From Promethearchaeota archaeon (GTDB taxonomy: Archaea > Asgardarchaeota > Lokiarchaeia > Sigyniarchaeales > SOKP01): a DNA stretch of 64,000 nucleotides. The notes beneath the pieces are model-generated. The model saw only the letters and a list, made by a program, of their open reading frames with translations, did no database searches and was not told the origin of the DNA. Positions 7,298-64,000 of the stretch are shown here, piece by piece. The first letter of the stretch is position 1. Every line of letters begins with the position of its first letter. A program made the translations under genes and the position numbers. The DNA is taken from contig JAEOTA010000081.1 in NCBI GenBank assembly GCA_016840085.1, positions 1 through 64,000 of the forward strand, written 5' to 3'.

Positions 7298-8326
7298 ATG
7301 ACAAAAGAATCGGGATATAGGTTAACCACAGATGTAAAAATACACGGATGAAGCTGTAAACTAGGACAAAACGATTTAAATGATTTATTAGCTAAAGTGG
7401 GATTAGCAGGAGATATTGAAGATGCTGCAATTATACCAATTCCCAATAGTGATTTAGTTCTTGTCAAAAGTATTGATGTTTTCACTCCAATTATTGATGA
7501 ACCCGATATAGCAGGTCAAATTGCTGCATGTAATGTAACTAATGATATTTTTGCTATGAATGTACCTGAGATCTCAGGAATGCTTGTATTTCTCGCAATA
7601 AGTACACGCACTCCAATAGAAGTTGCTGAAGGAATTTTAAGGGGAATAAAATATTTTATAGAAGACAAGATAAATTCTAAGGTGGTTGGTGGACACACAA
7701 TTTATAGTGAATGGCCATTAATGGGTGGTGAAGCTTCTGGATATATACATAAGGATCAAATTATTCAAAAACAAGGTGTGAAGAAAGGAGACAAATTGGT
7801 TTTAACCAAACCAATCGGATTACAAGCTATTATGGCAGCTTATAGGATTCTTAAGGATTTTCCAGAAATGATAGAACATTATTCTTCAGATGAACTCCAA
7901 AAATCTATAGATCTTGCTATTAAAATAATGACGACTTCTAATCAGGATGTTGTAAAAGTAATTCACTCTTACAATGATTTCTCATTTATTCATGCGCTAA
8001 CGGATATCACCGGATTTGGTTTAGCTGGTCATGCTTCTGAAATGCTTCAAAATTCAAATTTATCTGCCATAATTGATACTGTTCCTTCGATAAAACTTTC
8101 TAAAGATTTATCTGAAGAGCTAGGATATGCTTTTGATGATTGCACTTGCCATGAGACCGCGGGAGGAATGCTTATTGCTGTTGATCCTACTAACGCAGAA
8201 GACTTTACTACAAGACTTACAAGCAGTAAAATCTCCAATTGGATCGTTGGAATGATAGACAAGGTTCATCCTGGGCTTGTCAGAGTTTCAAAAAATGTTC
8301 ACAATATTGAAATTACAAATATTTAA
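7298..8326 (+). CDS. selD: Selenophosphate synthetase, selenoprotein (copy 2; Sec UGA at 7349-7351)
   Basis: SD GAGGTG then ATG 7298; reads YRLTTDVKIHG-U-SCK in frame with ORF 7397-8326; all SelD motifs present; 3' SECIS. Confidence 0.95.
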
Positions 8327-8327
8327 A

Positions 8328-8397
8328 GATGTTAATGATATAAGCTTAAACATTTCAAATGGGTGCTTATTGAAAATTCCACCTGCAAGGTGGCATC
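8328..8397 (+). promoter_or_regulatory. Eukaryote-like SECIS element of selD copy 2
   Basis: ATGA (8335) ... TGAA (8371) core, ATAAGC/GCTTAT helix, AAA, apical stem CATTT/AAATG, closing GATG/CATC. Confidence 0.9.
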
Positions 8398-8407
8398 AAA
8401 ATTAGAA

Positions 8408-9217
8408 CTACTCTCTTTCTTTTATTTTGCCATTAAGTTTTATAACAATCTCTCTAATTTCATCTAAGGTTTTATCAATCAATTCTTCTCCATTTTTTAC
8501 ATTAAAGGCGGTTATTGAAACCTCAACTTCAACGGACAAGCCAATGCGAGGATGGGTTTTAATCCACAATTGAGGATATTTTTTTTCTAATTCACTTGTA
8601 TATGCTGCTATCTGACTTTCCCCTATTCCTGAAAATAAAAATCCTTTTTCTATGAATTTTCCTTTTTCCTTTTTTAAAATAGGTGTTATTACATTTCTAA
8701 ACATTGACTTCATCTCTGTAGGTACACCAGGTAAGATAAAAATAGTAGTTTTATCCTCCTCAATTTTAACTCCAGGAGCAGTGCCTACAGTATTGGGTAA
8801 AGAGATAGAATTTTGAGGGAGATATGCCATTTTTTCTCGTTCTTTAGTCATACCCTCGAGTTGTAATAATCCTTTTTTATGGGCATGCTCATAAGCTTTT
8901 TTAATAGAATTATAGGCATGTTTATTTAACTCTAATTTCCTATTCAAACCATTAGCTATTCCCTGTAAAGTCATATCATCGAAAGTGGGGCCAATTCCCC
9001 CTGAAGTTATGACAATATTTGGTTTACGTTTTAATATATCTCTTATTGTATTTGATATTGTTTCTAACTTATCTCCTATAGTAGTTATTCTCTTTACTAT
9101 ATGTCCAAATTTCGTTATTCTTTTTGCCACCCAATTTGAATTTGTATCTTGAGTTTTTCCGATAAGAATTTCATTGCCAATCATCAATAACTCGATTTCC
9201 ATATTTCTTCCTTTCAA
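8408..9217 (-). CDS. CinA-like / molybdopterin-binding domain protein
   Basis: IGNEILIGKTQDTNS, SGGIGPTFDDMT, GTAPG and LPGVPTEM motifs. Confidence 0.9.
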   Translation of the reverse strand: MKGRNMEIELLMIGNEILIGKTQDTNSNWVAKRITKFGHIVKRITTIGDKLETISNTIRDILKRKPNIVITSGGIGPTFDDMTLQGIANGLNRKLELNKHAYNSIKKAYEHAHKKGLLQLEGMTKEREKMAYLPQNSISLPNTVGTAPGVKIEEDKTTIFILPGVPTEMKSMFRNVITPILKKEKGKFIEKGFLFSGIGESQIAAYTSELEKKYPQLWIKTHPRIGLSVEVEVSITAFNVKNGEELIDKTLDEIREIVIKLNGKIKERE

Positions 9218-19260: not shown

Positions 19261-19424
19261 GGGGACTTAGTGTAGTTTTTTTAGCAATATCGCTTAAAAT
19301 GCACAACCCGGTAGCACGACAGGCTCCAGATCCTATATGCAAACTTGTTCGTGCAGACACCTGTTAATCGGGGGTTCAAAAGCAAGCAAGATTTTCTTGT
19401 TTTCGGAAACTCCCTCAGTCCCCA
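19261..19424 (+). tRNA. tRNA-Trp(CCA) with three introns: 15/16 (19276-19306), 37/38 (19330-19358), 59/60 (19381-19410)
   Basis: Removing the inserts gives a 74-nt cloverleaf: GGGGACT/AGTCCCC acceptor, GTGT/GCAC D stem, ACAGG-CTCCAGA-CCTGT anticodon arm, GGGGG-TTCAAAT-CCCTC T arm. Confidence 0.9.
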
Positions 19425-48890: not shown

Positions 48891-49063
48891 ATGATGAAAG
48901 AATCGGAACACCGTGATTTAAATATATTCTTATACCTAATGCCGAACAATCGGCTAACCTCAACCCTTAACCCTGAGCATCAGTTCTCTCGACTGGGCGG
49001 GTAATTATTAGATAAATACGTCTCCTCTTTTTGTTTTCAGTTTTTCGCGGTGTCCGCTTCTTT
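48891..49063 (+). other. Structured element (candidate ncRNA) containing a 37-aa ORF that ends in RLGG
   Basis: Closing helix AAAGAAtCGGA.CACCGTGA / TCGCGGTGTCCGcTTCTTT; internal hairpins; ORF 48891-49004; T-tract downstream. Confidence 0.4.
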
Positions 49064-52030: not shown

Positions 52031-52190
52031 TGGTCCCTCCCCCCGGAATCTAGCTAGATCTGAAGTAGATCCGTATTTCGAGCCGGGGACCGCTCGGTTT
52101 CAATTTCGGCTGACGTAACTTCATTAGCTACCAGCTTTAGTACGCGATATTATCTACAGCCGAGCACTCTGACCACTGAGTTAGGGAGGG
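52031..52190 (-). tRNA. tRNA-Tyr(GTA) with two introns, 37/38 (52099-52153) and 59/60 (52048-52076); CCA encoded
   Basis: Spliced 76-nt cloverleaf: CCCTCCC/GGGAGGG-A-CCA, ACTC/GAGT, CTCGG-CTGTAGA-CCGAG, CCCGG-CTCGAAT-CCGGG. Confidence 0.9.
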
Positions 52191-52472: not shown

Positions 52473-53012
52473 ATTAGAGAAGAGACTGATTATACAGAAT
52501 CTATTGAGAGTTATAAAAACGATCCAAACGTTATTCTAGAACCATGGGGTAGAAGTATAGATCATTTACGATTAACCATTATTGGTAAAAAAGGAACACC
52601 TTATGCTGATGGAAAGTTCGTTTTTGAAATCAAGTTCCCTGAGAACTACCCGTTCGCTCCGCCCTACGCTTACGCAGTTACTTTAATGTGGCACCCTAAC
52701 ATTGATTCATCTATTCCACCAGGGAAATTGAATATATGTTTAGATTTAATTAATCCAGATTTAGTAGGTAAAGTTGATGCGAGTACAGGAGCAAGCGGAT
52801 GGACACCTTCAAAAACTCTAACTAATATTATTGAAGCACTGAAGGGCATGATGCATATAGAGTTATGTGAATATCTCGCATAACGTGTAAAGCCGCCCTT
52901 CTTTAATCCTGGCGATCCCCTTAATCATGAAGCAGGTGAACAGTATTTTCGTGCTTTAAAGAAATTTGAAGCTAAAGCTAAAAGCTGGACAGCCAAATAT
53001 GCCATCGACTAG
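52473..53012 (+). CDS. Ubiquitin-conjugating enzyme E2, split by a BHB intron (52861-52890); probable ATT/ATA start; about 169 aa spliced
   Basis: GTPYADGKF...FPENYPFAPP...WHPNID...NICLDLI...WTP...; after the insert, EPPFFNPGDPLNHEAG...KAKSWTAKYA. Confidence 0.9.
52861..52890 (+). other. Putative 30-nt BHB intron in E2 mRNA
   Basis: GC-AUAU-AG^A-GUUAUG...CAUAAC-GUGU-AA^A-GC; contains an in-frame TAA at 52881. Confidence 0.85.
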
Positions 53013-53084
53013 AGGAATTTAACTATCTTTTATTTCCTATTTTTATTTTTTATGTTTTAATTTATTTGGTTTAAGAAATTCAAA

Positions 53085-53119
53085 CTCATATTTCATAGAT
53101 TAGCTCATATCTCATAGAT
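53085..53119. repeat. Direct repeat CTCATAT(T/C)TCATAGAT x2, period 19 bp, upstream of the Fe-S gene
   Basis: Seen in sequence. Confidence 0.55.
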
Positions 53120-53210
53120 CACCTGTTATTATTAATAACCCAATTTCTTTAAATTGTTAATCCAAATATTTATTATAACGATTTGATTAAAGCAAATAAT
53201 TAATTAAAAA

Positions 53211-54092
53211 GTGGATTTATTGCTAAAAAAATCGACAGGGTTAAGATCTAAGGTTATAAAGATGGATAAATTTGATATCTCTTCTTTTACAGATATTTTA
53301 GCTGATAAGGCTGGAAAAATAATTCCAGAAATTTTCAAGGGTGTACAAAAAGCAAGAAGAGATTATAAAAATGAAATTAAAATACTTCCAGATGAGATTA
53401 AATATGCATCTGCAGAGTTATGGGAAGAGATTATTGGAAAAGCAATATCATTGGGAATAGATTTAATAGGATTTGCTCCTATTGATGAGAATTTAATTTT
53501 TGAGAATGATTATGTTGGTGGAATCGAAATGTTATATGAAAACGGAATTGTATTAGGTATGGAAATGAATTATGATGCAATAAATACTGCACCTAAACCC
53601 CCAGCAGGTTTAGAATCATTAAGAATTTATGCGGAATTAGGTAATGCTACGAATAAATTAGTTGATTTTATTCGTTCAAAAGGATATAAAGCAATTGCTT
53701 GTCATCCTTTAGGTGGTCCTATACTTTATCCCGCAATGGCAGTTAAAGCAAAATTAGGAAAAATAGGAAAGCAGGGTCTTTTAATCACAAAAAAGTATGG
53801 TCCCCGGCAAAGGTTATCTATTATTGCAATAAATGCTACTCCCCTTCCTGAAAATCAATGTGAAGATTTTGAAATTTCTGAGTTTTGTGAGAGATGTAGA
53901 AGATGCATTCATTTTTGCCCTGTTAATGCAATTTTTGAAGATCCTCTTGTCAAAAAAAATGGAACAATAACCCGAATCGATAGCAACAAATGTTTTGAGT
54001 ATTTTTACGAAACTACTGGTTGTTCAGTATGTATTGAAACATGTCCCTTTCATAAAATTGGTTCTGAAGTACTTTATTATAGACAGCTATAA
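53211..54092 (+). CDS. QueG / reductive-dehalogenase-like Fe-S protein
   Basis: AKLGKIGKQGLLIT..YGPRQR; FCERCRRCIHFCP and GCSVCIETCPF. Confidence 0.85.
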   Translation: MDLLLKKSTGLRSKVIKMDKFDISSFTDILADKAGKIIPEIFKGVQKARRDYKNEIKILPDEIKYASAELWEEIIGKAISLGIDLIGFAPIDENLIFENDYVGGIEMLYENGIVLGMEMNYDAINTAPKPPAGLESLRIYAELGNATNKLVDFIRSKGYKAIACHPLGGPILYPAMAVKAKLGKIGKQGLLITKKYGPRQRLSIIAINATPLPENQCEDFEISEFCERCRRCIHFCPVNAIFEDPLVKKNGTITRIDSNKCFEYFYETTGCSVCIETCPFHKIGSEVLYYRQL

Positions 54093-54126
54093 CAAATTCC
54101 CTAAATTATATTTAAATTAAGTAAAC

Positions 54127-54747
54127 ATGCGAAATATTTCTTTTAAAGATAAGAAAGTAATCATTTTTGATTTAGATGGGACTATTGTATACTTAAAAGC
54201 GGATTGGATATCTTTGAAAAGAAAACTAGTTGAAAAATATAATAAGCTTTATGATGATTATTGCAATTTTGATAGCGTGTCTGTATGTCTTAGTAAAATA
54301 GTAGAAAGAGAAGATGAAAAAGCGCTTGCAGATTTCATTAAAATTATTCGCCAGTATGAACTTGAAAATATCGAAGAAAACAAACCAATTAAAGAGTCAA
54401 TTTTTTTTATTAATAATAAAGAGTTATTTGGTATAGAAGAAAAGAGTAAATTCGTAATTTTGTCTCTTAATACAAGAAGTACTATAATCAAATCATTAAA
54501 ATTAGCGAAAATATTCAAAAAAATTGATTTTATAGTAGGAAGAGAGGATGTCCGAAAATGGAAACCAGATCCAGAAGGAATTTTTAAAATAAAAGCTCAT
54601 TATAATTTGAGAAATGAAGAAATGATTTATTTTGGGGATTTGGAAAAAGACATGATAACTGGGAAAAATGCTGGTATTGAAGCTTACTATATAGATGATT
54701 TAATTAATCTTGTTAATAAAAAGAAGTCTGGATTAAAAACTATCTAA
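54127..54747 (+). CDS. HAD-superfamily hydrolase
   Basis: IFDLDGT, KPDPEG and GD...D motifs. Confidence 0.9.
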   Translation: MRNISFKDKKVIIFDLDGTIVYLKADWISLKRKLVEKYNKLYDDYCNFDSVSVCLSKIVEREDEKALADFIKIIRQYELENIEENKPIKESIFFINNKELFGIEEKSKFVILSLNTRSTIIKSLKLAKIFKKIDFIVGREDVRKWKPDPEGIFKIKAHYNLRNEEMIYFGDLEKDMITGKNAGIEAYYIDDLINLVNKKKSGLKTI

Positions 54748-54767
54748 ATTTGTTCCATAATAAGTTA

Positions 54768-55367
54768 TTAGATTTTCATAAAGGTAAAGACTTCATCCTT
54801 TTTTTCAATATATTTGAACAAACCATAATTAGTTACTTTTGTAATAATTTGATCGTCCTTTAGATGATGGTCATCAACTGATAACCATCCATTATCTTTT
54901 AAAACTCGATACAATTCTCTTAAAATATTTTCTGGATCTGATAAGTGATGAAAAATATCCAATAAAAGAACTACATCAACGGTATTATCTTCTAGTTTTG
55001 TATTACATTCAGTTAGAATTGTTTCAATATTACAAAGTCCTCTTTTTTCTGCTCTTTTTTTGACATCTTCAATAGCTAAAGGATGAATATCAGCTGCATA
55101 TACTTTTCCTGTCTTACCAACTGCCTCTGCTGCGGCAATAGTATAACTCCCTGGACCACATCCATAATCTAATACAAAATTTCCTTTTTTTATTTTAGTT
55201 TTTTCTATTTTTAGATTTGGTGGATAGTTTTTATCACGTTTTTCAAAATGTTTAATCATAAATTTAAAATGAGTTTTGCTCATGGGTTTATCTTTTTCCC
55301 TTTTTTCTGGAATTACTAACACCCCTATTTTAAATATTAATATAAGAATAAAAAAATGGAATTTCAC
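54768..55367 (-). CDS. Class I SAM-dependent methyltransferase (true start probably downstream of 55367)
   Basis: VLDYGCGPG and RVLK..G motifs. Confidence 0.9.
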   Translation of the reverse strand: MKFHFFILILIFKIGVLVIPEKREKDKPMSKTHFKFMIKHFEKRDKNYPPNLKIEKTKIKKGNFVLDYGCGPGSYTIAAAEAVGKTGKVYAADIHPLAIEDVKKRAEKRGLCNIETILTECNTKLEDNTVDVVLLLDIFHHLSDPENILRELYRVLKDNGWLSVDDHHLKDDQIITKVTNYGLFKYIEKKDEVFTFMKI

Positions 55368-56977
55368 ATAAAAGTGATTATAACATTATATTTTTTAATC
55401 TCTGATTCTGCTAGTGCTTTTCCCAAAGGAGTTAACATAATTATATCATTTGATTTTATTTTTACTGAAGTTAACTTAATATCAGGATCTTTTAGTGAAG
55501 GCATGTACGGATTCCAATAAATCTCTTTAGTCATTGGATTAGTAATCATCCAAAATTCTGGATCTAGTTTGTGTCCTGAAACTTCCATTGCGTTAAATAT
55601 ATAACCAATATCAGCGTCAAAAGGCACTACAATTTGTACATTTTCTTCACCTTCAATCTTTCCACATGCTAAACAATCATCTCTTTTTATGATGTTTAGA
55701 TGATCAAATTGACCGTAAATGCCATTGTAATTCACATAGGGAGGATCCATCGGAGATCCAATATTTCTGCTGTTAACTCGAAATAATAGTTTGAGTGCTT
55801 CTTGAGATTGGATACTTGCAATTACGGAACTAACTGTTTGGATTGCTGCTATTTTATTTCCGAGAATATTTTCCATTTCTTCAAATTTGTAATCTGGACC
55901 AAAAGTGTTTCTGATATTATTTTTCCATTCTTCAATCTCTGCTTCAGTTAATGTATCTCTTTTCTCTGGAGATACATTTTCATTAAATACTCGCTCTCTT
56001 AATTGTTCTAACTCCTCTTGAGCTAATTCTTTTAGTTTAAGAACGTCAACATTTAAATTAAGATCAGGTTTATGTCCATATTTTTTTTCAAAATTAACTT
56101 CAGCTTTTATAACACAATGATTTCTATTACGGGGTAACCCTTTTAACGTGCACGCTGCAACTAATTTATCGTCAGCTGGAGGAATTGGAACTAAGCATCT
56201 ATAACATGGAGTTTGATCTAAAAGTTCGGGGGCATATTTCCAATCAAAAACCATTTCAATCTCTCTTCTGAATTTTTCTTTTAATGGATTAATTTTTTCT
56301 TCATTTAACCGTTCTATTTCTTCTTCTAGGTCTTCAATTCTTTTCTGGGCTTGAAAATATTCAGGGTATTCCATTTCAGTAATTTCCCAAAGTCTTGCTT
56401 CTACTAAATTATCGATCTCTCTTTCTTTATCTTTATATTGTAAACCAGAACCCTCAGGGATTACAATTTGAACATGACCTTCAAAAGCATGTGTAGCTCC
56501 TTCGACCATAGGTTTTTTTAGTCTAAGACAGATTTTATTTAAGTCCAATCTAGCATTAAAATTATCTAATGCTCCTATAACTACATCTGCTTCTTCATAT
56601 ACAGCCATAGGTAATTTTTGAAGCTTTTCAAAATAAAAATCAACTTTTAGAAAAAGATTCATTTCTTTCAATCGTTCTGCTGCCACTTCAGCTTTAGGTC
56701 GTCCCTCATCTCCCGGTTTAAATAGCATTTGTCTAGATAAATTTGAGGTTTCAATAGTATCTAAATCCACTAAGATCAGTTTACCTATACCCATCAGAGC
56801 GAAATCTTTTGCGATTTCACAGCCCTTCACGAAAATTATTGTTTATAATATTCCTAATGCGCCTACTCCGATGATTAAAATACATCCCTTATTTATAACA
56901 TCTTGATCCCAGCCATCAATTAATTGTTGTCGGGCATACATGCGCGACTTAACAAAATCTTCTACTTTTTCAGTCAT
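55364..56977 (-). CDS. Ubiquitin-like activating enzyme E1 (Uba3/Uba2-like), split by a BHB intron (56825-56854); 527 aa spliced
   Basis: Exon 1 MTEKVEDFVKSRMYARQQLIDGWDQDVINKGCILIIGVGAL joins GCEIAKD; D..E.SNLSRQ, ALDN..AR, PCYRC, catalytic ACTLKGLPRNRNHC and CLACG motifs. Confidence 0.92.
56825..56854 (-). other. Putative 30-nt BHB intron in E1 mRNA
   Basis: GGC-GCAU-UA^G-GAAUAUUAU...AUAAUUUUC-GUGA-AG^G-GCU; contains an in-frame TAA. Confidence 0.85.
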
Positions 56978-57110: not shown

Positions 57111-58307
57111 CTATGAAATCGTAATAGAATATGGGTGTAACCCTACACCCTCTATCCCATCTGCCAATATGGCTTTTGGGACTGCTTTTTTAAGGATATT
57201 ATATGCACCATTTACATCCGCATTGATAATAATCCCTTCTTGACTGTGATATAAACCCCTACAAATACGCTTTCCTTGAAATTTTTCATGTTTTTTTATA
57301 GATTCATTATCTAAGAAACTACATCTCGAAGTGAAAGATTCTGGCTCTAATATAACATCAATCTCGATTAACTCTGATTTATATTTAATTTGGGACATAA
57401 ATTTGGAAAAAGGAATTTGGACAAAGTTTTGGTTATTACGCTTTCCAATTTTTATTTTATGTTTCCAAGATTTATTATAACCAATGACTATCGTTCCAAA
57501 ATTGTGGTTAATGCAATAATTTATCACTGCTCTCGAAATTTTATGGAAGATATCATTAATTTTATTGTTTCTTTTCCGGGTTAGCCATTGCATTCTTTTT
57601 GTTTCAGAACCGATCCCTTGCTTATCCTTTTTGCTTTTATATCTAGCAAGTTGTTTGTTGTAGAATTGATTAATAGATTTCACAACACCACCTTTAATAA
57701 CAACAGGTTGTAACCCCGCATTATTTACCATAGTTATGATATTGTTCAACCCCAAATCAATCCCAATAACTCTCTTTTTATCTAAATTCAAATTTTTTAC
57801 TTCCTTTTTATAAATAATTTCTAAGATATAATATAATCCTTTTGGAATAATTCTGACGTGGTGTAATTTACTTTTTATACGGGTTTTAACGGGAGGTAAT
57901 TGAGTTTTTTTCGGGAAATAAAGAAAAGCTCCCTTGATCATGCATTGTTGATTCGTAAAAATAATCATACACTCGCCATCTTTCTTTTTGTAACGTGGCG
58001 GTTTTGGAGATCCTAAGTAATTCTCTGGCTGCTTTTTGTGGTTTTTAAGAGATTGGAAAAATGATTTCCAATTTTTATCCACGAGTTTTAAAATTTGCTG
58101 AGCAGTTTGTGAAGGGAGCTTTTTATATGGTTCTTTCTCTTTTAGCATATACCATAAGTCGTAATATCTCAACCAATTACCTAAATAAAAAAACTCTTGT
58201 CTCACATAATAATTGGCAAGATTATAGAGATTTTTAGATAAATGACATAGATAAGATAATTGTGGAGTGTTCTTTAATTGAATCTGTTCTGTTAACCTCA
58301 TTTCCAT
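57111..58307 (-). mobile_element. tnpB: IS200/IS605-family TnpB without tnpA (IS1341-like)
   Basis: SKNLYN.ANY, LPSQTAQQ, GIDLG, IGYN..WK, ESFTSRCS and NADVNGAYNI motifs; terminal hairpin GGGTGTA/TACACCC. Confidence 0.92.
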
Positions 58308-61400: not shown

Positions 61401-64000
61401 CCGTAGCGTTATAGTATACTGTGATTGCTTTATCAAAATCATTTTGTTCAATATGTTTTTGTGCTTCTTCTAAAAGTTTGAAAGCTTCTTCTTTTCTCTT
61501 TTCAGTTATTAATCTAATTTCTTCCAGTTTTCTCAGTTCCTCTTGTTTTTCTTTCATTTTAAGCTGTTCTAATTTCATTTTTTCTGTTATCTGTTGTTGG
61601 AATAGGCGCTCTTCTTGTTCTCTTCTAAGATTTAATTCGAGTTCTTTTAATTTATTCAAATCATCATCTCTCTTTTTCTCCTGGATTTTTTGAATCATTT
61701 CTCTGATAATAGTTGTAGGAAAAAAAATTTCATTGAAAATTAATTCTGAATTACGATAAAGTTCAATTGATTTATCATATTCACTTTGATTTAATAACTC
61801 TTCAGCTTGATCCATAATCTCAAATGCTTCTATTTTACGTTTTTTCATTTTTTGTAACAAATCTTCACGTTTTTGAACTTCAATTACCTTAGAGTTTAAT
61901 CTTTCTTTCTCTTTTCGTATATAGTTTGAAATTTTATTTTGAAATTGTTCCTCTTCTTTTTGACGGTTTAATGCAGCTTCAAATTCTATCTGCTTTACCT
62001 TTTCCTTTCTTTCTTTGCTTTCTTGAATAGATTGAATTGTGTCTTTTAGTAATTTTAAATAATCTTCTCGCCACCCTATTCCTTTTAAGATATTTATTGC
62101 ATTTTCATAATTTTCTATAGCTTTCGCGAAGTTTTCTTCTTTGAGAATATTTTCGGCTTCTTCAATAATATTAAATGCTCTTTCTTGTTCAACTAAATTT
62201 TGGGCTGAAATTTTTTTCTGTTTTTCAAGTATTTTTTGCTCTTTTAATGCTTCTACTTTTTCTCTTTCTCTTTGAAGTAGAATCTTGTTCATAAAAGCTT
62301 TATCAACAGTTTCTTTTTCAATTGCCTTTTGTAATAATTTTTGTTTATAGAGTTCATTCTCTCTCTTTTTCTCTTTTATATCCTCTATTGTAGTTTGAAT
62401 AATTGGAATTTCTTCTGTCCATTGAATTTGAGCAAAGATATTGGCTACATCATAATATATTTCAAGAGTATTATCAAACTTTCCAAAAGAAAGGAAATTT
62501 TGAGCTTTTTCTAGCAAATCAAATGCTTCATTCTTTTTATTTGCTTGATAGGCTCTTAAATTCTCTTTTTCACTTAATGCAATTTCCTTTTCTTTCAATC
62601 TTTCACGTTGAGCTTTCATTTCTCTAGTGATGAGCTCTTGAAACCTTTTTTCTTCCTTTTCATGCTCAAAATCAGCTTGAATTTTCAATTGTTTTTGTAA
62701 TTCGGCCTCTTTTTTCTGATTTTCAATTTCTATAATAGAATTTTGAATTAAGCTTATTTCGTTTTGCCAATTCGCATCTGCAAAAAAATTGATAGCATAT
62801 TGCAATATTTCAATAGCTTTATCAAAATAACCTTGTTTTAAATTATCCTGTGATTCCTCTAATAATTTAAAACCTGATTTTCTTCTTTCTTCACGATATT
62901 GTAATTCTTTTTCCCGTCCTCTTAATTCAATTTCTTGTTTTTTCAGTTTTTCTCTTTCTTGTTTTAAATATTTTGTAATTTGCTTTTGAAAATCTTCTTC
63001 TTTTTTTTCTCTTTCTAAAGTTTCTTGCATCTTTTTTTGTCTTAAAATCTTTTGATCACGTTTTAGTTCTTCAACTTGATGTATAGAATTTTCAATCAAA
63101 GGAATTTCCTCAGTCCATCGTATTTCAGCAAAAATATTGCCTGCATTTTGGTACTCCTCGATTGCATTATTATATTCACCTCTTTTAACGAAACTTAATG
63201 CTGAATCTAGAAATTCAAAAGCCTTTTTCCTCCGCTCCTTAAAATATTTTACTTCTTCCTCCTTTTCCTTTAATATGATCTCTTTTTTCTTTAAATGTTC
63301 ACGCTCTTTATTTAATTGAGTAGCAATTTGCTTCTGAAAATCAATTTCAGCTTCTTCCCTTTTTTCCAAACGTTTTTGGTCTTCATATTGCTTCTTGAGT
63401 CGAGAATCTTTTATCTTCTCTATATTTAATATTGTATTCTTAATTGTATTAATGTAAGTTTCCCACCCTGTTCCTAAATCTTCAAGAATTACCAACCCTT
63501 CTTTATATTCATTGATAGCTCTTTCAAAGTTTTTTTCTTTTAAAATTTCATCTGCTTTATCTAAAATTTTAAAGAGATCCTTCTCTTTTTCTGCATAATC
63601 TCTTTTTTTTAATTCAAATTCTTCCCTTTTATTCTCTAAATCTTTAGCAGATTCTATTGCTTGCTTCATTTCCTTTAAATAAATAGATTCTTGAACTCTA
63701 AATAATTCTCTTTCTCGTTTTTCTTTAAGACCCTCAGTTTTTTTCTCTCTTTCTTGTTTTTCCTTTATCCCATTTATTAAATTAATCACTGGTTGAATAT
63801 AAGAATCCCATTCTATTGATTTGAGGAGCTGAATCGCTTCTTCAAGTTTCTCGATTGCGTGATTATAATCTTTTTCTCTTTCAAACTTCTTTCCTATATC
63901 AATTAAATTGAAAGCTTTTATTTGTACTTGCTCTTCTATTCTCTTCTTTTCTTCAAACTCAATAAGTTTTTTTCTTTGTAAATCTGCTTCTGAAGTTAAA
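58486..64000 (-). CDS. Giant repeat protein (more than 1830 aa; 5' end outside the window) built from TPR/MIT-like helical units and coiled coils
   Basis: Frame is open to the window edge; recurring unit of about 115 aa, AF.LL..A......F..AI..Y..A..IF.EI.W. Confidence 0.85.
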   Translation of the reverse strand, partial: LTSEADLQRKKLIEFEEKKRIEEQVQIKAFNLIDIGKKFEREKDYNHAIEKLEEAIQLLKSIEWDSYIQPVINLINGIKEKQEREKKTEGLKEKRERELFRVQESIYLKEMKQAIESAKDLENKREEFELKKRDYAEKEKDLFKILDKADEILKEKNFERAINEYKEGLVILEDLGTGWETYINTIKNTILNIEKIKDSRLKKQYEDQKRLEKREEAEIDFQKQIATQLNKEREHLKKKEIILKEKEEEVKYFKERRKKAFEFLDSALSFVKRGEYNNAIEEYQNAGNIFAEIRWTEEIPLIENSIHQVEELKRDQKILRQKKMQETLEREKKEEDFQKQITKYLKQEREKLKKQEIELRGREKELQYREERRKSGFKLLEESQDNLKQGYFDKAIEILQYAINFFADANWQNEISLIQNSIIEIENQKKEAELQKQLKIQADFEHEKEEKRFQELITREMKAQRERLKEKEIALSEKENLRAYQANKKNEAFDLLEKAQNFLSFGKFDNTLEIYYDVANIFAQIQWTEEIPIIQTTIEDIKEKKRENELYKQKLLQKAIEKETVDKAFMNKILLQREREKVEALKEQKILEKQKKISAQNLVEQERAFNIIEEAENILKEENFAKAIENYENAINILKGIGWREDYLKLLKDTIQSIQESKERKEKVKQIEFEAALNRQKEEEQFQNKISNYIRKEKERLNSKVIEVQKREDLLQKMKKRKIEAFEIMDQAEELLNQSEYDKSIELYRNSELIFNEIFFPTTIIREMIQKIQEKKRDDDLNKLKELELNLRREQEERLFQQQITEKMKLEQLKMKEKQEELRKLEEIRLITEKRKEEAFKLLEEAQKHIEQNDFDKAITVYYNATDIFTEIQWHDEIDLIQRSINEVENKKYKMEVKKQMELKASLEREKEEKLFHELISEEMKTQREKLRQREIKLRKKEEELVYREKKREEGFKLLDKAQDLLSKGRFEESIDIYRDVANNFAQIQWDDEIPILENAIQNIMKKKREDDIQKAKLLQESIDKEKANYEFMEQIKLYRKKERAMAIEEEENLKSQKLISAQNLVKQQEAFNLINNGYESVKHKDFDNALVSYQHAIHILTEIGWTREYLKLLTNTINTIEKRKRDLEKQKEIEQELKINQQQEQQQFQSKISESMLREKKRLELKELKIQERENLLQKMESRKIEAFEIMDLAEKLLKQAEYDKATEMYHKAELILSEIGFPTNLIRDMIYKVQMKSREEITTKQMELESKLQKEREQFDFQQKIAESIKINELRMKSQQNELEKQKKHRAYMEKRKDEAFSILDEAEIYMNQARYNKALEYYHTAELILNEISFPTEAIRETIQKVREKKKDHQLQRQKDLELSIQREREVWEFEEQISTFFKNERERLQNKQIEIQEKEELKARLEKRKESAFKILDDAEKFLKASNYENAIERYRKAGLILNELQFPTDSINNMILKVNKLKKQEVEQEELKFQKEFEKLEEEKALKILIDERKRQEEEKKRAQLLAQKQRERMIQEQMTVRESAYSLLDEAGKYLKQLNPDFNNAISLYVQARNILAENIGWEPEINNLNALIKDLQQEQVNYIKKKKLEEEARIQRQIEYEKFQEEVRRKRLEQEQLKRGQEKQYRELFVKKKHFDQIRDEGLKYIDDGKRLAAYHDFENAYEKFNTAISKFKEIGWKEEIKYIETEIKNAKILEERVKAEESRINEIQKQLEKQRSLEKSRRESKDAEMKQAISEVSIDTDKVMKMIEEGRSKAKLKEKKQKEQIKDEAKEFSKKMSDLIKIKQELIDEIEKKEMEKKKEQKRLKQAKEREEIDNLKKMIKKADKSKKT

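What the first reader, a model, noticed from the sequence alone, without database searches (positions are those of the whole stretch)
52473..56977. Candidate system: splicing-gated ubiquitin cascade using tRNA-splicing machinery on mRNAs
Seen: the only two protein genes here with recognisable BHB introns are consecutive steps (E1, E2) of one pathway, about 2.4 kb apart. Both introns are 30 nt, in frame, carry a TAA, have GCAT just upstream and CGTG near the 3' end. Unspliced mRNA would give dead enzymes. Four of the five tRNA introns in the window are 29-31 nt. Inference A: EndA/RtcB activity switches ubiquitin-like conjugation on, analogous to non-spliceosomal HAC1/XBP1 splicing in eukaryotes. 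Inference B: a mobile class of about 30-nt BHB introns has spread from tRNAs into conserved mRNAs. Either way, standard gene callers would fragment such genes and hide Asgard eukaryotic-signature proteins. I cannot verify novelty without a literature search.
Basis: inference. Interest (0 to 1): 0.92.

Follow-up and report, generated by a model that had tools for sequence, protein, structure and literature searches.

The report
tRNA-type mini-introns in Asgard E1/E2
The ubiquitin-activating and ubiquitin-conjugating genes of this Asgard archaeon are each broken by a 30-base insert shaped like a tRNA intron, but so are at least 14 other, mostly housekeeping genes, so this points to widespread messenger-RNA splicing in a close relative of eukaryotes rather than to a ubiquitin switch.

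Summary
Both inserts are real: E2 52861-52890 (+) and E1 56854-56825 (-). Each is 30 nt, in frame, carries TAA and has bulge-helix-bulge (BHB) geometry. Removal restores the intron-less ortholog. The E1 intron covaries with its exon across relatives.

The ubiquitin-switch reading is not supported. A genome comparison finds at least 19 such inserts in 16 genes, including single-copy EF-2, uS3, Rpo10 and AMP phosphorylase; six shift the frame. The E2 intron is absent from 31 congeners. Ten other E1-intron carriers have an intron-free E2, and a contig with two other E2 inserts has a clean E1. Proteasome, JAB and RING genes are essentially intron-free.

Best reading: tRNA-type mRNA introns removed as routine by EndA/RtcB, gained and lost site by site in conserved genes. 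No sequence link to tRNA introns was found. Relatives have two EndA genes; this assembly holds only the non-catalytic one. Public databases truncate both proteins.

No spliced transcript has been seen. The papers I could search report only cbf5 and a Haloferax 5'UTR intron. This scan found the same intron class before, in this and other Lokiarchaeia genomes.

The parts
52473..52860 (+). E2 (UQ_con) exon 1, ATT start, holds the catalytic Cys89 (ICLD)
   Evidence: Pfam; ATC/ATT start in 30 of 31 E2 loci read, and 37 synonymous vs 3 non-synonymous codon changes against the closest relative
52861..52890 (+). 30-nt BHB intron with in-frame TAA (52881-52883); found in this genome only
   Evidence: absent from 31 congeners and 18 other-family genomes; helix 4/4, inner stem 9 bp
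52891..53012 (+). E2 exon 2 (PPFFNPGDPLN to the C-terminus)
   Evidence: 9 synonymous vs 1 non-synonymous change against the closest relative
56855..56977 (-). E1 (ThiF/UBA-like) exon 1, ending GVGAL of the ATP-binding loop
   Evidence: called as a separate 41-44 aa gene in related contigs
56825..56854 (-). 30-nt relaxed BHB intron with in-frame TAA; shared with some congeners
   Evidence: 13 sequences carry it; compensatory A-U/G-C change between an exon wobble base and the intron; carriers not monophyletic
55364..56824 (-). E1 exon 2; best PDB matches are eukaryotic UBA1/UBA6
   Evidence: 87 synonymous vs 28 non-synonymous changes in 400 codons against the closest relative
53211..55367 (.). 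three intervening intron-free genes (4Fe-4S protein, HAD hydrolase, methyltransferase); E1 and E2 are not one operon
52031..52190 (-). tRNA-Tyr(GTA) with introns 52153-52099 (55 nt, 37/38) and 52076-52048 (29 nt, T-loop)
19261..19424 (+). tRNA-Trp(CCA) with introns 19276-19306, 19330-19358 and 19381-19410

Best explanation
The two inserts are tRNA-type (BHB) introns in mRNA. They are two of at least 19 in 16 conserved genes of this Lokiarchaeia (Promethearchaeota) genome. The pre-mRNA folds a 4-bp helix between exon and intron 3' end, flanked by 3-nt bulges. The two-subunit splicing endonuclease EndA cuts after the second base of each bulge, and RtcB joins the exons, restoring the frame. This is routine maturation shared with multi-intron tRNAs, not a ubiquitin-specific switch. 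Introns are gained and lost site by site in conserved motifs that can supply the helix. The E1 intron is old and patchy, the E2 intron is recent and private, and they meet here because this genome is intron-rich. Shown: inserts, boundaries, structure, covariation, census, distribution. Inferred: actual splicing, the enzyme, and absence of regulation.
For: Boundaries predicted by BHB geometry equal those defined by intron-less orthologs. The motif-free census peaks at 30-32 nt. Six inserts are 31, 32 or 38 nt and shift the frame, two of them in single-copy uS3 and Rpo10. 18 of 19 have at least 3 of 4 central pairs, each matched to its own exon (67/76 pairs vs 38 when introns are swapped between sites), and all 19 have A as first base of the 3' bulge. 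E1 exon-intron compensatory change. Purifying selection downstream of both stops. EF-2 carries a 30-nt stop insert in 7 of 35 congeners, E1 in 3 of 30, E2 in 0 of 31. RtcB is intact. 35 of 40 relatives show two or more EndA matches.
Against: No transcript or protein evidence. The catalytic EndA subunit was not found in this assembly. One uS3 insert has only 2 of 4 central pairs. Splice registers were partly chosen for best BHB among homolog-equivalent boundaries, and PurA, AcsB and the monooxygenase were found by motif. E1 and E2 are hit repeatedly (2 and 3 sites in about 130 and 76 loci) while less conserved neighbours are not. 2-3 of 16 genes being ubiquitin-like is a post hoc excess (P 0.003-0.12 against conserved-gene backgrounds of 800-1150), so a mild bias is not excluded.
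Confidence: 0.75

Rival explanations
1. Ubiquitin-specific gating: regulated EndA/RtcB splicing turns on E1 and E2 together, like IRE1 on HAC1/XBP1.
For: Both genes are interrupted here and are the only such protein genes found in the window. A ThiS/SAMP-like Ubl gene also has an intron before its Gly-Gly. E1 and E2 are repeated targets.
Against: No other genome or contig has both. Ten E1-intron carriers have a clean E2, and L256 has two E2 inserts but a clean E1. Three Ubl-intron carriers have clean E1 and E2. Proteasome 1 of 141 matches interrupted across 31 genomes; JAB 0/7 and RING 0/4 here. The closest relative has a second, intron-free E1-E2 pair that falls in an assembly gap here. EndA is needed all the time for tRNAs and translation genes.
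Confidence: 0.04
2. Global coupling: splicing is partly rate-limiting, so EndA capacity or growth state tunes a set of translation, transcription, proteostasis and metabolic mRNAs, weak BHBs (such as E1's) most.
For: Introns sit in highly conserved genes (orthologs 73-95% identical against a median of 69%). The E1 intron persists across deep branches. Stem strength varies widely, from -1.0 to -9.0 kcal/mol. A regulatory role was proposed for the cbf5 intron (PMC2738675).
Against: The target set differs between close congeners (the comparison genome shows only 2-3 of its own), which is not how a conserved regulon behaves.
Confidence: 0.12
3. No splicing: the inserts are pseudogenising hairpin insertions, assembly errors, or are bypassed by readthrough or ribosomal hopping.
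For: No transcript seen; catalytic EndA subunit missing from this assembly.
Against: The E1 insert recurs in independent assemblies with covariation. Single-copy EF-2, uS3 and Rpo10 are interrupted. Frame-shifting lengths rule out simple readthrough. Downstream exons are under purifying selection. The geometry is that of the tRNA introns in the same window.
Confidence: 0.07

Closest known systems
cbf5 pre-mRNA intron of Desulfurococcales/Sulfolobales (Watanabe 2002; Yokobori 2009, PMC2738675)
   Same: Short BHB intron inside a coding sequence, often with a relaxed BHB needing a hetero-oligomeric EndA; interrupts a functional motif; gained and lost across lineages.
   Different: One gene and one site there, with splicing shown by cDNA. 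Here at least 16 genes in one genome, a tight 30-32 nt length, Asgard archaea, and no transcript yet.
Haloferax volcanii HVO_1309 5'UTR BHB intron (Schwarz 2020, PMC7714728)
   Same: mRNA substrate of the tRNA splicing endonuclease.
   Different: Lies in the untranslated leader and does not break a reading frame; single case.
Multi-intron, non-canonical tRNA genes of Asgard archaea and Thermoproteales (PMC11291895; bioRxiv 10.64898/2026.10.13.758758)
   Same: BHB introns gained repeatedly; no general copying route found in Asgard, matching the lack of similarity among the introns here.
   Different: Those papers treat tRNA genes only; the preprint has no mention of mRNA.
IRE1-dependent HAC1/XBP1 splicing (PMC13149111)
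   Same: Non-spliceosomal cut-and-ligate splicing of a coding mRNA; XBP1 is ligated by RtcB (my knowledge).
   Different: Uses a dedicated stress-activated nuclease on two stem-loops and one conserved target. Here the motif is a BHB for the housekeeping EndA, and the targets are many and not conserved.

Membership tests
Archaeal BHB (EndA-type) intron | 4-bp central helix between exon and intron, flanked by two 3-nt bulges, with an inner intron helix | tested here: met
   E2 4/4 with 9-bp stem; E1 3/4 with 8 of 9 (relaxed type)
Archaeal BHB (EndA-type) intron | Cuts after the second bulge base regenerate the intron-less sequence | tested here: met
   gives MMHIEPPFF and GALGCE as in orthologs
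Archaeal BHB (EndA-type) intron | Structure kept by covariation | tested here: met
   E1: 3 pairs with two-sided changes, 4/500 shuffles reach the score, only 6 distinct rows. E2 not testable (single sequence).
Archaeal BHB (EndA-type) intron | EndA and RtcB encoded; hetero-oligomeric EndA for relaxed motifs | tested here: inconclusive
   RtcB intact. The one EndA gene lacks the catalytic Tyr and His equivalents. 35 of 40 relatives have a second, higher-scoring match whose residues I could not read; it is missing from this assembly.
Archaeal BHB (EndA-type) intron | Spliced RNA observed | not testable with these tools
   no transcript data; no intron-less E1 above 88% identity in the protein collection
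HAC1/XBP1-type regulated splicing | Conserved target set co-regulated by the intron | tested here: not met
   E1, E2 and Ubl introns do not co-occur outside this genome
HAC1/XBP1-type regulated splicing | Stimulus-dependent splicing by a dedicated nuclease | not testable with these tools
   needs RNA data; the motif is that of the housekeeping tRNA enzyme
Transposed tRNA introns (Thermoproteales type) | Families of similar intron sequences at different sites | tested here: not met
   best pairwise score 29 vs shuffled 95th percentile 30; no second copy of either intron in the genome. Only the five window tRNA introns were compared.
E1/E2 ubiquitin-like enzymes | ThiF domain with GxGxxG loop; UQ_con domain with catalytic Cys | tested here: met
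   Pfam; PDB UBA1 matches; both complete only after intron removal

The most novel reading that the evidence does not exclude
Splicing of these mRNA introns is incomplete and condition-dependent, so the tRNA-splicing enzymes act as a post-transcriptional control over a set of Asgard mRNAs that includes ubiquitin E1 and E2: an archaeal forerunner of regulated non-spliceosomal mRNA splicing.
Probability: 0.1. Interest if true: 0.92.

Novelty: new variant of a known kind. Interest (0 to 1): 0.7.

Why it matters
Published work I could search documents endonuclease-type splicing inside an archaeal coding sequence for one gene (cbf5). A genome with at least 16 such genes, including translation, transcription and ubiquitin-system genes, would make mRNA splicing routine in part of the archaeal group closest to eukaryotes, by a route unrelated to the spliceosome. 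It also means databases hold truncated versions of Asgard proteins, as shown here for E1 (488 aa, ATP loop lost) and E2 (65 aa). The private E2 intron is a recent gain with intron-less orthologs up to 98% identical, a good case for studying how such introns arise. The specific ubiquitin-switch idea adds little.

Tried and rejected
Motif-only genome scans were too noisy. Even after an energy filter, several top hits were ordinary coding sequence: a sulfatase, a glycosyltransferase motif, a nonsense TAG at C60, and C4:82921, which is intact in the relative. ARAGORN and Rfam miss both window tRNAs. An alternative E1 register one base upstream was dropped: it has a weaker inner stem, no outer helix, and gives Phe for the invariant Leu in some relatives. 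A 7-bp outer helix around the E2 intron looked like exon co-adaptation, but 6-7 of its pairs exist in 8 of about 30 intron-less orthologs. The ATT start of E2 is not decay; it is conserved. Proximity of the two genes is not special: PurA and a zinc-ribbon gene carry introns 7.8 kb apart on C49. Searching the protein collection for a spliced, near-identical E1 found none. The catalytic EndA subunit could not be retrieved (one search returned only the structural one). I did not fetch more GTDB genome sequence by another route.
Full report
Observation. The E2 frame (52473-53012, +) and the E1 frame (56977-55364, -) each read through with a single TAA and match Pfam UQ_con and ThiF; E1's best solved relatives are UBA1/UBA6. 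Orthologs show that each stop lies in an exact 30-nt insert: 52861-52890 and 56854-56825. Both fold as bulge-helix-bulge. E2 has a 4/4 central helix and a 9-bp inner stem; E1 has 3/4, 8 of 9 and a 3-bp outer helix. Cutting after the second bulge base restores the ortholog sequence. Exons downstream of the stops are under purifying selection. The window's tRNA-Trp and tRNA-Tyr carry introns of 31, 29, 30 and 55, 29 nt. Protein relatives are labelled Promethearchaeota/Lokiarchaeota. The GCAT/CGTG likeness is in different registers and the two introns are 10/30 identical.

Distribution. The E2 intron is absent from 31 congeners and 18 other-family genomes. The E1 intron is in 3 of 30 congeners and 9 further contigs, some redundant. 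Its carriers are not one clade (3 changes, at least 2 forced by supported branches), so it is old and lost repeatedly, or moved. Its central helix shows an A-U/G-C compensatory change between an exon wobble base and the intron. All ten other carriers with a readable E2 have a clean E2. One contig has two E2 inserts at other sites and a clean E1, and two contigs have a second E1 site and a clean E2. The E1+E2 combination is unique to this genome among those searched.

Genome census. I aligned proteins from 76% of a congener to this genome with a motif-free long-gap model, then added motif hits checked against homologs or invariant motifs. Result: 19 inserts in 16 genes, namely EF-2 (2), uS3 (2), an 89-aa conserved ORF (2), Rpo10, AMP phosphorylase, acyl-CoA synthetase, a Ras-family GTPase, a ferredoxin-like protein, a zinc-ribbon protein, RNase HII, PurA, acetyl-CoA synthase beta, nitronate monooxygenase, a ThiS/SAMP-like Ubl, E1 and E2 (Pfam labels for eight; RNase HII and the CdhC domain; the others by motif from my knowledge). 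Thirteen are 30 nt, four 31, one 32 and one 38. Eighteen have at least 3 of 4 central pairs and all have A at the first 3'-bulge position. Among motif-free inserts 8 of 13 pass a strict BHB test against 0 of 26 ordinary indels. EF-2, uS3, Rpo10 and AMP phosphorylase are single-copy. The congener shows only 2-3 inserts of its own, so this genome is intron-rich.

Test of the ubiquitin idea. EF-2 has a 30-nt stop insert in 7 of 35 congeners and uS3 in at least 2, as often as E1 and more often than E2. Chosen in advance, proteasome subunits show 1 interrupted gene in 141 matches and chaperonins 0 in 88; JAB, RING and intact ubiquitin-family genes here have no internal stops. The Ubl intron occurs in 4 congeners and is absent in 5; three of the carriers have clean E1 and E2. 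The closest relative has a second, intron-free E1-E2 pair, which here falls in the gap between contigs C67 and C13. By established function EndA and RtcB must run continuously for tRNAs, and here for EF-2, uS3 and Rpo10, so they cannot serve as a pathway-specific switch (inference). A mild bias remains possible: 2-3 of 16 genes is a post hoc excess (P 0.003-0.12), and E1/E2 are hit at five sites while less conserved neighbours are not. Preference for highly conserved genes explains this as well.

Machinery. RtcB is intact. The single EndA gene in the assembly lacks the catalytic Tyr and His equivalents, as do its homologs, so it looks like a structural subunit. 35 of 40 relatives have a second, stronger match, which fits an (alpha-beta)2 enzyme, the type reported to cut relaxed BHBs in cbf5 (PMC2738675). 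The catalytic gene was not found here; an assembly gap is likely but unproven.

Origin. No intron resembles another, or a window tRNA intron, beyond shuffles, and neither has a second copy. Each 3' helix strand matches its own exon. Copying from tRNAs is therefore not shown, in line with the Asgard tRNA-intron preprint.

Comparison and novelty. Known mRNA substrates are cbf5 and a Haloferax 5'UTR (PMC7714728). Nine literature searches found no report of BHB introns in Asgard coding genes; subscription papers are largely outside the library. Earlier notes of this scan describe the same class on other DNA; I treated them as leads and retested those in this genome. Databases hold E1 as 488 aa and E2 as 65 aa, confirming that annotation hides these genes.

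Verdict. Observation confirmed. Spliced mRNA introns are very likely (about 0.9); routine housekeeping splicing is the best reading (0.75); ubiquitin-specific gating is unlikely (0.04). New variant of a known kind; interest 0.7, carried by the genome-wide intron class and not by the ubiquitin pairing.

Noticed in passing
window 52473-52475: E2 starts at ATT; 30 of 31 E2 loci read start with ATC or ATT, a conserved non-AUG start.
   Followed up: partly
L256 (E2 gene, about 8300-8460, -): Two further 30-nt hairpin inserts in E2 at new sites. One is in frame without a stop and has a poor central helix, so it would pass as a 10-aa insertion.
   Followed up: partly
L237, L275 (E1, near residue 149): A second E1 intron site in the VEGG motif, 39 and 32 nt.
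   Followed up: partly
L201:1210-1815 (G000:C79): The only EndA gene in the assembly lacks the catalytic Tyr and His; relatives have a second gene that is missing here.
   Followed up: partly
G000 end of C67 / start of C13: A Ubl-E1-E2-JAB cluster seen in the closest relative is cut by an assembly gap in this genome.
   Followed up: partly
G000:C19:6003-6056 (-): Intron just before the Gly-Gly of a Ubl; all five carriers have the exon codons that give a CCCC/GGGG helix, and the five intron-less genes do not.
   Followed up: partly
G030:C1:9788-10374: A proteasome subunit split with a stop and about 30 extra bases; possible further intron.
   Followed up: no
G000:C88 about 61700-61760: A 32-nt hairpin insert, relative to the congener, in a conserved stretch that looks non-coding; possibly a structured RNA.
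   Followed up: no
window about 48900-49010 (-): A GC-rich intergenic stretch, 29 nt longer than in the closest relative, with similar sequences on other contigs; may be a mobile-element end.
   Followed up: no
window 57111-58307 (-): An IS605/TnpB-family gene sits directly upstream of E1 and is absent from the related contigs fetched.
   Followed up: no
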